A stretch of DNA of 64,000 nucleotides from Amphiscolops sp. MND2022. Taxonomy: Eukaryota. Location of the stretch: contig OZ076409.1 in NCBI GenBank assembly GCA_964187785.1, forward strand, positions 31,312,001 to 31,376,000, in the 5' to 3' direction. Below are positions 3,238 through 11,413 of the stretch, piece after piece. The position numbers were made by a program, and so were the translations under genes. Below the pieces are notes generated by a model. That model searched no databases. It saw only the letters and a list, made by a program, of their open reading frames with translations, and was not told the origin of the DNA. Every line of letters begins with the position of its first letter. Within the stretch, counting starts at the first letter, position 1.

Positions 3238-3361
3238 CTACTACTACTACTACTACTACTACTACTACTACTACTACTACTACTACTACTACTACTACTA
3301 CTACTACTACTACTACTACTACTACTACTACTACTACTACTACTACTACTACTACTACTAC
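3238..3361. repeat. (CTA)n microsatellite, ~41 units
   Basis: Perfect trinucleotide run seen directly. Confidence 0.99.
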
Positions 3362-3840
3362 ATCTGATCGCAGGCGTTTTCCAATTCTGGCCCTATTCAA
3401 ATTTGGCCTTTTGCATCTTTCACTTGCAACTGGCTTTTTACAAAATTGGTCTAACTACTGGCGTTTTAGTCGATTTTACAACTTTTGGCAGTTTCCCACT
3501 TCTGGCAGAATACCACTTCTGGCGGAATACTTATTGCAATCACCTCAGTTTTGATTAAATCAAAAATAACAAGATCAACATCAAAGTGGATCAACATCAA
3601 CATCATTCAACTTGAAATCCCCAACGGCTGTTTTTCCTTTCCCCCCACTGGCTGTGATCACTAATTTTTTGCCTAATAAAAATGTTCAGTTATAGTTTTT
3701 TGATTTGTCTTTTAAACAAATAAAGCACTCGTTGTGCTGACGTTACATGAAATTGCAGAAAAACTACCTTTTTGGCATTATTTTCCAGTAATTCTGTAGT
3801 GTTTGTCATGTGTGTGTGGGGGAAAGGAAAAAGAGCCACA

Positions 3841-4078
3841 ACAAGATCAACATCAAAGTTGATCAACAAGATCAACATCATTAAACTTAAAACCAACAAG
3901 ATCAACATCAAAGTTGATCAACAAGATCAACATCATTAAACTTAAAACCAACAAGATCAACATCAAAGTTGATCAACAAGATCAACATCATTAAACTTAA
4001 AACCAACAAGATCAACATCAAAGTTGATCAACAAGATCAACATCATTAAACTTAAAACCAACAAGATCAACATCAAAG
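3841..4078. repeat. 55-bp minisatellite, ~4.3 copies
   Basis: ACAAGATCAACATCAAAGTTGATCAACAAGATCAACATCATTAAACTTAAAACCA in tandem; a related single copy lies at ~3568-3615. Confidence 0.95.
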
Positions 4079-4989
4079 TAAGCTGAGTTCCATGTTACAA
4101 TAAGTACGTAATACACTCTGTCAAGGTTTTTAAGTTGTTTTTTTCATGAATAAAACAGAACGAAAAAAACACGAAAACATTTTGTAAAAAACATTTTTTT
4201 AAATGTTTTTTTCCTTTAGTGGTGAGGAAAAATTTTCTTAATAAAGGAGCAAATTGAGGAGTGGAAACGAGGTGGAATTCGCAACAAGACATGCTGGATT
4301 ATTTCATTAAAAACTGGATGGAAATTGTGTGGTATTGTGACTACTCTCCTTCCCCAAAATGACCAATTGTACCGTCATGTGGAAGATATACATATACAGG
4401 CAAAATGCGAAAAAAATACAAAAAAAAACAGTATAATTCGGAAAAAAACATGTTTTAAACACTTTTCGTGAAAAAAACAGTATAATTAACAACCTTGCAA
4501 TCTGTTGATAAGAAGAAAAGTTCCATACCGCATGAATAAAGCAAAAGTTCTGGCAACCAGCGCTTATCAGAGGCAAATGACCAATGAACAGGACTTCTGG
4601 TGAAAAGAAAGGTTGGGTCTTTTCTTATAACGGTCCCCCGGCGAAAAAATTGACCCCCACGAAGTTGCAAAATGAATGAAAGTGGACATGCGGTAATGGT
4701 TCAGCTCACATGAGTTATTTTAAACCTATCAGAGAAAAGCAGAGAAGAATTGAATGAGGTGGGGGGTCGATGAAACTTCTGGCTCTACGTTTTACGACGG
4801 TAGTAAGAAAAGACCCGAAAGGGTTTTTTGATGAACAGTGGAAAGGCCCGACTTCTGGTATAATGAAACGTTTCTAAATGCAGGTACAATCAGAGGCAAA
4901 TGACCGGAAGTTCTGGCAACAAGAACATTTTAAAAATAGAGCACTAATCAGAGGCAAATGCAGGGAGGATCAAATACAAATAAACATGT

Positions 4990-9711: not shown

Positions 9712-10873
9712 CTGGTTTAACTAAAATCACGAATTTACGAAACAAATCACAACTCAATGTCTTAAACACAAGTTACACAAATGGTCGAAGAGACTGAGTT
9801 AGGCCAGGCATGTGTTGATGCCTCGTTTCCACACCTTCTCAGAATCCTCAAACATTCATATGACTGTTTTTAAGGAACCTTGAGGAGGAAATATCATGAA
9901 AAAGAATCATTTGTTATTACGAAATTAACTTCTAACTTTGATGAAAAAACCGGAATAATTTTTTCCATGTCTGATATTGCTTAAACCGAATCAGCAAAAT
10001 GAATTTATATTTCAATAACTGATCATAAAAGAATATTTGGTCATTGGTCAACAAAGAAATGATTAACTGCTCATCACTGGAAGCAAGTAGGTAGAAAGGC
10101 ACCTCGGAAAGAAAACTTATGTGAACTAACTTTGATCAAGGTGAACGTTTTCATCGCTAAACGCTTTATTTCCGTACTGTAAAGACTATGGTGTGTCATA
10201 CTCTGTATTTCAAAATGAAAATTTGAAGTATTTGTAATTATAAGTTAGAATGATAAAACAAAGGAATTGAAAGTGCAATAAAAAGAAAGAAGAGTTAAAC
10301 AGAGGTTCAATGAGTTGTGGAAGTATTCGATGATGGAGACCTGGCACTGGGATTGATCATCATCACCATCATCGTCATAATTGCCATCATCATCATGATA
10401 TTACTACTGCTAAAAAGATTAGAGCGCTGAAATGTTCCGAGTCGTCGCTAATTGTAAACTCGGCACAATGATCTTCTCCAGTACATGTCTACTCTCCATC
10501 GGGTTGAAAACTGATACTCAGCGACGATAACCATTTTCATCTTTCCAGGGTCGGCGCTTTTGTTTATTTCAATTTTTTCGCAAGTACATCCAAACTAATC
10601 ATTTTTCTTCCTTAAAGTACAATGGACAAACATATAATCTGAAATAAATTTAACGAAATGCAATATTGTAGAAACGGTAATTAATTGCGTTAGGTGACAA
10701 AAACAGAACTGCTATTTTGACAGTCAGGGGTTTGCCTATTGCAATAATTTTCGCTATTCGCTCGCTGTTTTCAAGATGCTGCTTTCGAAGTCGTTCATCG
10801 CCGAAAAAGCTACCCAAGTCCAATGTCATCAGTGGTCCCAATAATTATTAATAATAATAATAATAATAACAAA

Positions 10874-10950
10874 GATAGTAATAATTTATCGAAGAGTGTT
10901 TGGAGATCATGGTAATGATCTCCAAACACTCTTCGATAAATTCTTACTAT
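10874..10950. repeat. Long near-perfect palindrome (hairpin)
   Basis: GATAGTAATAATTTATCGAAGAGTGTTTGGAGATCAT-GGTA-ATGATCTCCAAACACTCTTCGATAAATTCTTACTATC. Confidence 0.9.
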
Positions 10951-11383
10951 CTCTATTACTACTATGGAGTTATCACAATCCAAATATTATTGGATAATGG
11001 TACGATATATTGTAGTTACAGACTGTTCTTCGCACAAACGATACCCCTTTATTGTGAAGGTAAAAATTTCACTTTCACGACAAAACGTATGCTTACGACT
11101 GGAAAAGTATTCTTTCTGGCTTTTAACATCGAACTTTTGCGAAAATCGGACGAAGACCGCCAGTAGTTGCAACGTATTATCGAATTTTTTTATTCATCGA
11201 ATTTTTGGTCTCACTACACTGGAATGAAGTTTGTTAATTATATTGTGTGTCTAACTTAGCATTACTGTTGGTTTTGATGGCGAAATATATTCAGTGGCGG
11301 TATACAGTCCTAAGGTGAAAGTTTTTTGGCGATATACAGCTTTCTGGCGGTATACAAAACAGGTAAAACGCCAAAGATAAGTG

Positions 11384-11413
11384 TACTACTACTACTACTA
11401 CTACTACTACTAC
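11384..11413. repeat. (ACT)n microsatellite, ~10 units
   Basis: Perfect run on the same strand as the 3238-3361 tract; both tracts are followed by ACATC. Confidence 0.98.

What the first reader, a model, noticed from the sequence alone, without database searches (positions are those of the whole stretch)
3238..11413. SET-YR element sits between two (ACT)n tracts: candidate microsatellite-targeted integration
Seen: the only two long (ACT)n tracts I found in 64 kb (3238-3361 and 11384-11413) are on the same strand and bracket the SET-YR gene. The sequences abutting them form an imperfect inverted repeat (TACATCTGATCGCAGGCGTTTT vs TACA-CTTATCTTTGGCGTTTT, 17 of 22 aligned positions). Inference: the ~8-kb unit integrated into a single (ACT)n microsatellite by YR-mediated site-specific recombination, using TAC/ACT as the crossover core and splitting the tract. 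That would be a safe-harbour strategy. I recall microsatellite preference being reported for some animal Crypton groups, so the novelty is mainly the combination with SET cargo.
Basis: partly seen in the sequence, partly recalled or inferred. Interest (0 to 1): 0.85.

Follow-up and report, generated by a model that had tools for sequence, protein, structure and literature searches.

The report
Recombinase transposon inside a coding microsatellite
An 8-kb stretch that encodes a DNA cut-and-rejoin enzyme fused to a histone-methyltransferase-like domain lies exactly between two (ACT)n repeats, the left of which is a greatly lengthened threonine-codon run inside another multicopy gene; it is likely a jumping gene that aims at such repeats, a habit already reported for CryptonV elements.

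Summary
Observation confirmed. The only (ACT)n tracts in 64 kb (3238-3361, 11384-11413) abut an 8,022-bp unit. Its ends match without a gap (13 of 19, p about 2.5e-4) and carry shared GGC-motif arrays. It encodes an intact 1,292-aa protein: SETD8-like SET, zinc fingers and tyrosine recombinase (YR). Three other full-length copies are about 99% identical.

New here: the left tract is the poly-Thr run inside another multicopy SET gene (114 protein variants). Uninterrupted copies have 4-8 Thr codons; this one has 41. That gene's tail does not follow the right tract and is absent from the window; what follows looks like a second element end. So the target is identified, but 'one tract cleanly split' is not shown: tandem pile-up or rearrangement is needed. 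The repeated core may be 3 or 6 bp; 6 bp (TACTAC) fits YR geometry.

Microsatellite targeting is reported for CryptonV; I found no paper on the SET fusion. The scan already noted a 7.7-kb SET-YR element in (CTA)n elsewhere in this genome (e1-8792193, unchecked). No flanks of other copies were obtainable, so family-wide targeting is untested here.

The parts
3362..11383 (-). Predicted SET-YR DNA transposon, 8,022 bp (strand given is that of its gene)
   Evidence: Ends at the tract edges, ungapped end match 13/19; motif arrays at both ends; one long ORF
3238..3361 (+). Left (ACT)n tract, 41 units, ending in TAC; it is the lengthened poly-Thr run of the neighbouring SET gene
   Evidence: the window's frame reads ...GSESERETS-TTT, identical to family proteins that continue with 4-8 Thr and a 15-residue tail
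11384..11413 (+). Right (ACT)n tract, 10 units, beginning with TAC
3362..3380 (+). Left terminal arm (19 bp, GGCGTTTT core); predicted recombinase site
   Evidence: the role is inferred
11365..11383 (-). Right terminal arm, inverted relative to the left
   Evidence: the role is inferred
3372..3524 (+). Left subterminal array of eight [T/A]GGC motifs, spacing 16, 16, 27, 28, 27, 17, 17
   Evidence: 2 of 3,192 sliding 170-bp windows reach 8, this one included; motif chosen after the fact
11278..11374 (+). Right subterminal array: four TGGCG on + (spacing 17, 32, 18) plus the inverted terminal one
   Evidence: the only 110-bp window of 6,389 with 5 sites; motif chosen after the fact
4990..8868 (-). 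Intact 1,292-aa ORF: SET, repeat linker, two Cys/His clusters, YR, conserved C-terminal helical segment
   Evidence: identical to database protein P0011
8458..8760 (-). SET domain (aa 37-137), closest solved structure SETD8/KMT5A; the NH motif reads ND
   Evidence: Pfam PF00856, E 8.6e-6; PDB best E 1.1e-5 SETD8, with MLL and EZH2 only about 6-10 times weaker; motif in 7 of 7 proteins printed
7305..8061 (-). 57-bp (19-aa) coding tandem repeat linker; unit number varies between copies
   Evidence: DSNESE count 10, 12, 14 and 15 in four copies
6853..7041 (-). Two Cys/His clusters, likely zinc fingers
   Evidence: Invariant C/H in A2; only weak matches to solved zinc fingers, E 0.3-0.7
5755..6759 (-). 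Tyrosine recombinase: SAM-like core-binding domain plus catalytic domain (R879, K906, R981, H1009, Y1018; the first catalytic His position is N)
   Evidence: VIA-align top hits XerA Z 10.3, XerH 10.0, Tn1549 Int 8.9, Cre 8.6; Foldseek top rows all Cre, E 0.02-0.09; R, HKTG, RK, H and Y invariant in 18 sequences at 22% mean column identity
3839..4079 (+). 55-bp internal tandem repeat (4.4 copies) in the element's 3' non-coding part
897..3237 (+). 5' part of the interrupted multicopy gene (N-terminal domain, probable intron about 1870-2290, C-terminal SETD8-like SET); a one-base frameshift near 3186-3199; last 15 codons missing
   Evidence: Both ORFs match one protein, P0211 (48% and 63%); 114-member cluster at 97%; frame change and missing tail
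11414..11530 (+). Probable terminus of a second, different element in the same tract: begins ATC after TAC like the left end; GCA(A/G)TGACA three times at 11417, 11449 and 11479
   Evidence: P of ATC about 0.02; 3 of the 4 plus-strand window copies of the motif lie here; 19 of 1,598 control windows score as high, all in TRF-listed repeat arrays or periodic stretches. Only 5/19 identity to the SET-YR left end; far end not found

Best explanation
The 8,022 bp between the tracts carry one intact SET-zinc finger-tyrosine recombinase gene and matching ends, and are likely a young CryptonV-like DNA transposon that inserted into the (ACT)n threonine-codon run of another multicopy SET gene, with a second element probably lodged behind it in the same tract. 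Shown: the ends, the gene, the copies, the identity of the left tract, and the missing tail of the interrupted gene. Inferred mechanism: the recombinase binds the two inverted 19-bp arms and the GGC arrays and cuts in the flanking repeat. It releases a circle whose ends are joined by a tract-derived overlap, most likely two units (TACTAC). That is the only length in the 6-8-bp range typical of YRs at which the two flanks are identical. Because the overlap is itself (TAC)n, it matches any other (TAC)n tract in one orientation, so repeat targeting perpetuates itself and elements pile up in one tract. The tract had probably lengthened by slippage before or after entry; long tracts are the better targets. 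The SET domain is predicted to act in cis on chromatin at the element or target (H4K20-type or another lysine); its activity is untested and its NH motif is altered.
For: End symmetry at zero shift. Phase-matched TAC on both sides. GGC arrays at both ends. YR fold and invariant catalytic residues. Three other full-length copies differ at 6, 9 and 6 of 1,040 residues compared, on contigs of other lengths. One search returned 10 proteins in all: 2 at 99% and 8 at 39-74%. The pre-insertion state is read from proteins: of 20 listed proteins of the three closest clusters, 14 run through 4-8 Thr into the same tail, 1 reads the tract in the Leu frame (which fixes the codon as ACT), 1 is the window's own copy and 4 end earlier. 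PMC3212892 (passages): YR sites are inverted 11-13-bp arms around 6-8 bp, and Cryptons have 4- or 6-bp direct repeats. PMC8869645 (passage): some CryptonV insert specifically in microsatellites. PMC10871703 (abstract and passages): nimavirus YRs with a C2H2 plus SAM-like architecture target (TAACC)n, and reads span end-tract-end.
Against: Only one insertion site was seen; no DNA of other copies could be fetched (searches returned nothing; no genome is held). The right flank is not the interrupted gene's tail, so a second event must be assumed. The supposed second element has no far end in the window and shares only 5/19 bases with the SET-YR end. The jump from 4-8 to 41 units is unexplained. 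The YR model is moderate (pLDDT 72, pTM 0.49) and no Foldseek hit reaches E 0.001. The near-identical proteins could include alleles. Only 15 of the 114 cluster members were listed.
Confidence: 0.65

Rival explanations
1. The element is a real (ACT)n-flanked YR transposon, but its left neighbour was joined to it later. A deletion or translocation between the element's long left tract and the short coding tract of the SET gene (ectopic recombination, or a one-ended attack by the recombinase) removed the original left flank and the gene's tail. The right flank is then simply the original host DNA.
For: One event explains both the long tract (41 against 4-8 units) and the missing tail. The far end of a second element was not found.
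Against: The right flank starts with the same TAC-ATC junction and has a terminus-like repeated motif. A fragment of the same SET gene family lies on a contig of the same length (78,497 nt) as another 99% SET-YR copy, which hints at repeated association; the distance is unknown.
Confidence: 0.2
2. One reading: a single insertion through a 3-bp TAC core into one long uninterrupted tract, with the original flanks directly outside the two tracts.
For: Phase-matched TAC on both sides and symmetrical arms; a 3-bp core fits the sequence as well as a 6-bp one.
Against: Rejoining the flanks does not restore the gene: after the right tract the frame reads T-S-Q-stop instead of the 15-residue tail found in 14 family proteins. 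A 3-bp overlap is below the 6-8 bp quoted for YRs.
Confidence: 0.07
3. The left SET gene belongs to the same element (a two-gene unit), and the left tract is internal.
For: Both genes carry SETD8-like SET domains and are adjacent and convergent; possible co-location on a second contig.
Against: Copy numbers differ more than 20-fold (114 against 5 proteins at 90% or more). Other copies of the left gene have a short tract and an intact tail. The terminal arm and motif array start right at the tract edge.
Confidence: 0.04
4. The tracts are unrelated to transposition: chance neighbours, or repeats that arose at the ends after insertion.
For: Only one locus was examined; bracketing at any distance has p = 0.067.
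Against: The left tract predates the insertion. The inverted arms begin exactly at both tract edges. These are the only ACT runs of 3 or more units in 64 kb.
Confidence: 0.04

Closest known systems
CryptonV (Kapitonov and Jurka 2012, Repbase Reports; seen only as a title and one sentence in PMC8869645, and as a class name in PMC4455052 and PMC5753468)
   Same: Animal DNA transposon with a YR as its only mobility enzyme; insertion in microsatellites.
   Different: N-terminal SETD8-like SET fusion, not found in my searches; Repbase entries could not be read, so it may be recorded there. No CryptonV sequence was available, so kinship is untested.
Cryptons A, F, I, S (Kojima and Jurka 2011, PMC3212892; passages)
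   Same: YR DNA transposons with short direct repeats (4-6 bp), proposed to move through a circle; some carry an extra chromatin-related enzyme (Ulp1 protease).
   Different: They lack terminal inverted repeats, while this element has imperfect 19-bp arms. No DUF3504 or GCR1_C match. No microsatellite is mentioned in that paper (0 occurrences).
Telomere-repeat-targeting endogenous nimaviruses (PMC10871703; abstract and passages)
   Same: YR with a C2H2 zinc-binding and a SAM-like domain; integration in a simple repeat; end-tract-end junctions.
   Different: They are 278-401-kb viral genomes targeting (TAACC)n; this is an 8-kb one-gene element in (ACT)n with a SET fusion. The YRs were not compared directly.
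Starships (bioRxiv 10.64898/2026.09.21.753150; abstract and outline only)
   Same: Eukaryotic YR element shown to move through a circular intermediate.
   Different: Fungal, giant, with a DUF3435 captain; no DUF3435 Pfam hit here, only a 0.90 look-alike by language-model features.
SETD8/PR-Set7 (KMT5A) H4K20 monomethyltransferase
   Same: Best PDB match of the SET domain; the tyrosines of the 'Y-x-G' and 'Y-D-Y' motifs align.
   Different: The cofactor-binding NH is ND in all 7 element proteins printed; the margin over MLL and EZH2 is small; activity is unknown.

Membership tests
CryptonV | DNA transposon whose only mobility enzyme is a tyrosine recombinase | tested here: met
   YR fold and residues; no other long ORF inside 3362-11383
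CryptonV | Copies inserted specifically in microsatellites | tested here: inconclusive
   True of the one copy seen; flanks of other copies not obtainable
CryptonV | YR groups with CryptonV reference sequences | not testable with these tools
   No Repbase sequences on hand; Atlas look-alikes at 0.96-0.98 are unnamed animal clusters
Crypton (A/F/I/S) | Short terminal direct repeat of 4-6 bp | tested here: inconclusive
   3, 6 or 9 bp are indistinguishable in a periodic flank
Crypton (A/F/I/S) | No terminal inverted repeats | tested here: not met
   Imperfect inverted arms, 13/19, p about 2.5e-4
CryptonA / CryptonF | DUF3504 domain (A) or GCR1_C domain (F) | tested here: not met
   Neither family is listed at E up to 0.1 for the whole protein or up to 10 for the 7 YR regions
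Starship | DUF3435 captain recombinase at the start of a large cargo element | tested here: not met
   No DUF3435 Pfam hit; 8-kb single-gene unit
DIRS / Ngaro retrotransposons | Reverse transcriptase-RNase H gene with the YR | tested here: not met
   No such ORF between the tracts
SETD8/PR-Set7 methyltransferase | SET domain closest to SETD8 | tested here: inconclusive
   SETD8 is best (E 1.1e-5) but MLL1 is at 6.9e-5 and EZH2 at 1e-4
SETD8/PR-Set7 methyltransferase | Intact cofactor-binding NH motif | tested here: not met
   RFIND / RYIND in 7 of 7 printed
SETD8/PR-Set7 methyltransferase | Methylates H4K20 | not testable with these tools
   Needs an assay

The most novel reading that the evidence does not exclude
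A lineage of animal YR transposons keeps its target choice in the DNA it carries: a 6-bp (TAC)2 overlap in the excised circle commits it to (ACT)n tracts. Repeated entry builds tandem stacks of elements and drives short coding repeats (4-8 codons) to 40 or more units. One favoured target is the poly-Thr run of a rival SET-bearing mobile gene family, which the insertion truncates. The fused SET domain, captured at least twice (SETD8-like here, SUV4-20-like in P0091), marks the element's own chromatin.
Probability: 0.2. Interest if true: 0.8.

Novelty: new variant of a known kind. Interest (0 to 1): 0.5.

Why it matters
CryptonV targeting is known from little more than a Repbase note. This copy is young, has an intact enzyme, ends defined to the base and a target whose earlier state can be read from sister genes. 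That makes the mechanism directly testable: the number of TAC units in the circle junction, and the orientation of copies relative to the tract. If the 6-bp overlap model holds, it explains in a simple way why YR elements settle in simple repeats. An animal-cell recombinase aimed at (ACT)n would also interest people building integration tools. The SET fusion, with two different H4K20-type SET domains on related recombinases, suggests that transposons repeatedly capture chromatin writers, and that some 'extra' KMT5A-like gene models in animal genomes may be transposon genes (inference).

Tried and rejected
No whole genome is held. No sequencing run was listed (this is not evidence of absence), so no reads could be laid.

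Locus fetches that found nothing: viral contigs, metagenome contigs, prokaryote genomes. Alignment A3 was too diverse to give search patterns. Look-ups of earlier findings by sequence or nearby place were empty; by words across genomes also empty.

Pfam and PDB sequence searches do not recognise the YR. Rfam finds nothing in the window.

By eye, the left gene's N-terminal domain looks like a YR core with the catalytic Arg replaced by Pro (a recalled pattern). This was not supported: no profile match, model pLDDT 45.5, best Z 4.4 with no YR listed. It is left unassigned.

The interrupted gene's tail was sought in six frames (best 7/15, elsewhere and unconvincing) and as an inferred 17-nt pattern with 3 mismatches (0 hits). 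No YR or SET fragment lies outside 800-9000 (276 proteins, tblastn E up to 1e-3).

A 7-bp element-borne spacer around TAC was considered and set aside: mismatched spacer bases would be replaced by tract bases over rounds of movement, yet both are retained (inference).

Literature searches for a SET-YR element. I read listings, and passages of PMC10871703, PMC5753468, PMC3212892, PMC8869645, PMC13465315, PMC12153100 and PMC4455052; none of the passages describes one. The Kojima review (10.1266/ggs.18-00024) is not held. Repbase Reports and supplements were not seen and may bear on novelty.

Full report
Observation. They are the only such runs in 64 kb. Taking the element as 3362-11383, the two ends match without a gap, 13 of 19 at zero shift against at most 6 at other shifts, p = 2.5e-4. 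The left tract ends in TAC and the right begins with TAC. Both ends carry arrays of a GGC motif, mostly 16-18 or 27-32 bp apart: eight sites at 3372-3520 and five at 11278-11370. Such densities are reached by 2 of 3,192 and 1 of 6,389 sliding windows (motifs chosen after the fact). The unit therefore has real termini at the tract edges.

The gene. One intact ORF (4990-8868, minus strand, 1,292 aa) holds an N-terminal SET domain, a 19-aa repeat linker, two Cys/His clusters and a recombinase. Pfam does not name the recombinase. A model of residues 603-1040 (pLDDT 72) is matched best by XerA, XerH, Tn1549 integrase and Cre (Z 10.3-8.6), and Foldseek's top rows are all Cre, at E 0.02-0.09. R, HKTG, RK, H and Y are invariant in 18 relatives at 22% mean column identity, and the K, R, H and Y motifs were found in all 27 sequences checked. 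The position of the first catalytic His is N, T or another residue. The SET domain is closest to SETD8, narrowly, with NH changed to ND in 7 of 7 proteins printed. No second gene lies inside the unit.

Copies. Three other full-length proteins differ at 6-9 of 1,040 residues compared and vary in linker length; they and a 74-aa fragment lie on contigs of different lengths. Eight further proteins at 39-74% form subfamilies. A profile search gives 245 proteins at E up to 0.001. In a tree of 27 chosen sequences, the SETD8-like fusions fall in one supported clade (97/96) that also holds three rows without a detected SET. A distant relative, P0091, carries a SUV4-20-like SET instead, which suggests a second capture. 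Look-alike clusters in the ESM Atlas are unnamed animal proteins. None of these tools gave DNA, so the flanks of other copies remain unseen.

The target. The ORFs left of the element (897-1874, 2270-3220) are two parts of one gene with a C-terminal SET, a family of 114 protein variants at 90% identity or more. After a one-base frameshift near 3186-3199, the window's DNA encodes the family's C-terminal peptide exactly up to the tract (18 of 18). Of 20 listed proteins in the three closest clusters, 14 continue with 4-8 Thr and a 15-residue tail. One reads the same DNA as a Leu run, fixing the codon as ACT; one is the window's own copy; four end earlier. A more distant cluster has only two Thr there (14 proteins). 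So the left tract is an old coding repeat, here 41 units long, and the insertion sits in it.

What does not fit the simple story. The gene's tail should follow the right tract, but the frame there reads T-S-Q-stop and the tail is nowhere in the window. Instead 11414 onward begins with ATC, as the element's left end does (chance about 0.02). It carries GCA(A/G)TGACA three times in 75 bp, a structure otherwise seen only in repeat arrays (19 of 1,598 windows). I read this as the end of a second element in the same tract, interrupted further on by the satellites and decayed elements that fill the window. Its far end was not found and it shares only 5 of 19 bases with the SET-YR end, so a rearrangement between tracts remains a fair rival. 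The tract length is unexplained.

Mechanism (inferred). YR sites are inverted arms around a 6-8-bp overlap, and Cryptons show 4-6-bp direct repeats (PMC3212892, passages). In a period-3 flank the identical overlap can be 3, 6 or 9 bp; only 6 (TACTAC) lies in that range. I therefore commit to excision as a circle with two TAC units between the ends. Such a circle is matched to any (TAC)n tract in one orientation, which explains targeting and stacking. How the enzyme binds the repeat half-sites is unknown; the zinc fingers are candidates. Circles are shown for Starships (abstract). Nimavirus YRs of like architecture target (TAACC)n. The SET domain probably acts on local chromatin; nothing here shows activity.

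Comparison and novelty. It works like CryptonV, some families of which insert in microsatellites (one sentence in PMC8869645). Membership could not be tested without reference sequences. It fails the tests for CryptonA/F, Starships and DIRS/Ngaro. Eight literature searches found no description of a SET-YR element, but Repbase itself was not readable. The scan's own notes report a 7.7-kb SET-YR element mostly in (CTA)n elsewhere in this genome (e1-8792193); this is an unchecked lead that agrees, not support. What this locus adds is the base-exact ends, the identified coding target, the 5-10-fold longer tract and the probable second element.

Verdict: real feature, new variant of a known kind, interest 0.5.

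Noticed in passing
window 897-3237 (+): The interrupted gene is itself a large young family (114 variants at 90% or more, plus about 18 more distant clusters), with a C-terminal SETD8-like SET and an unassigned N-terminal domain; probably borne by another mobile element. An 80%-identical cluster occurs in JGI, Logan and ENA records on contigs of up to 18 kb.
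   Followed up: partly
P0236 and P0002 (contig length 78,497 in both listings): A 66-aa fragment of the left-gene family and another 99% SET-YR copy are listed on contigs of identical length, possibly a second case of the same pairing; distance unknown.
   Followed up: no
P0091 / P0210: A distant YR relative fused to a SUV4-20-like SET (E 2e-8 to SUV420H1) rather than a SETD8-like one; it lies outside the SETD8-like clade in the tree.
   Followed up: partly
P0083 cluster: Five cluster members of a SET-less YR relative are all listed on contigs of 21,251 nt, suggesting several copies in tandem on one contig.
   Followed up: no
window 2021-2189: Nested 46-47-bp inverted repeats (91-96% complementary) inside the probable intron of the left gene.
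   Followed up: no
window 9419-9711 and 10860-10965: Hairpin-forming inverted repeats (26, 29 and 51 bp arms) in the element's 2.5-kb non-coding upstream region; no Rfam match.
   Followed up: no
window 11872-20808: A run of satellite-like arrays with periods of 183, 184, 178 and 170-172 bp, starting 460 bp after the right tract.
   Followed up: no
window about 37200-50040 (-): Broken ORFs of a Polinton-like element: integrase core (PF00665, E 7e-12), A32-like ATPase (weak), endonuclease VII-like motif; the polymerase B and capsid labels are by eye and recalled.
   Followed up: no
window 21450-22450 (-) and 35879-36672 (-): Fragments resembling a Helitron-type helicase (weak P-loop hit) and a non-LTR retrotransposon C-terminus; labels by eye.
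   Followed up: no
window 56120-64000: A motif recurring at about 1,715-bp spacing (56120, 57845, 59560, 61273, 62987) suggests a long-period tandem array.
   Followed up: no
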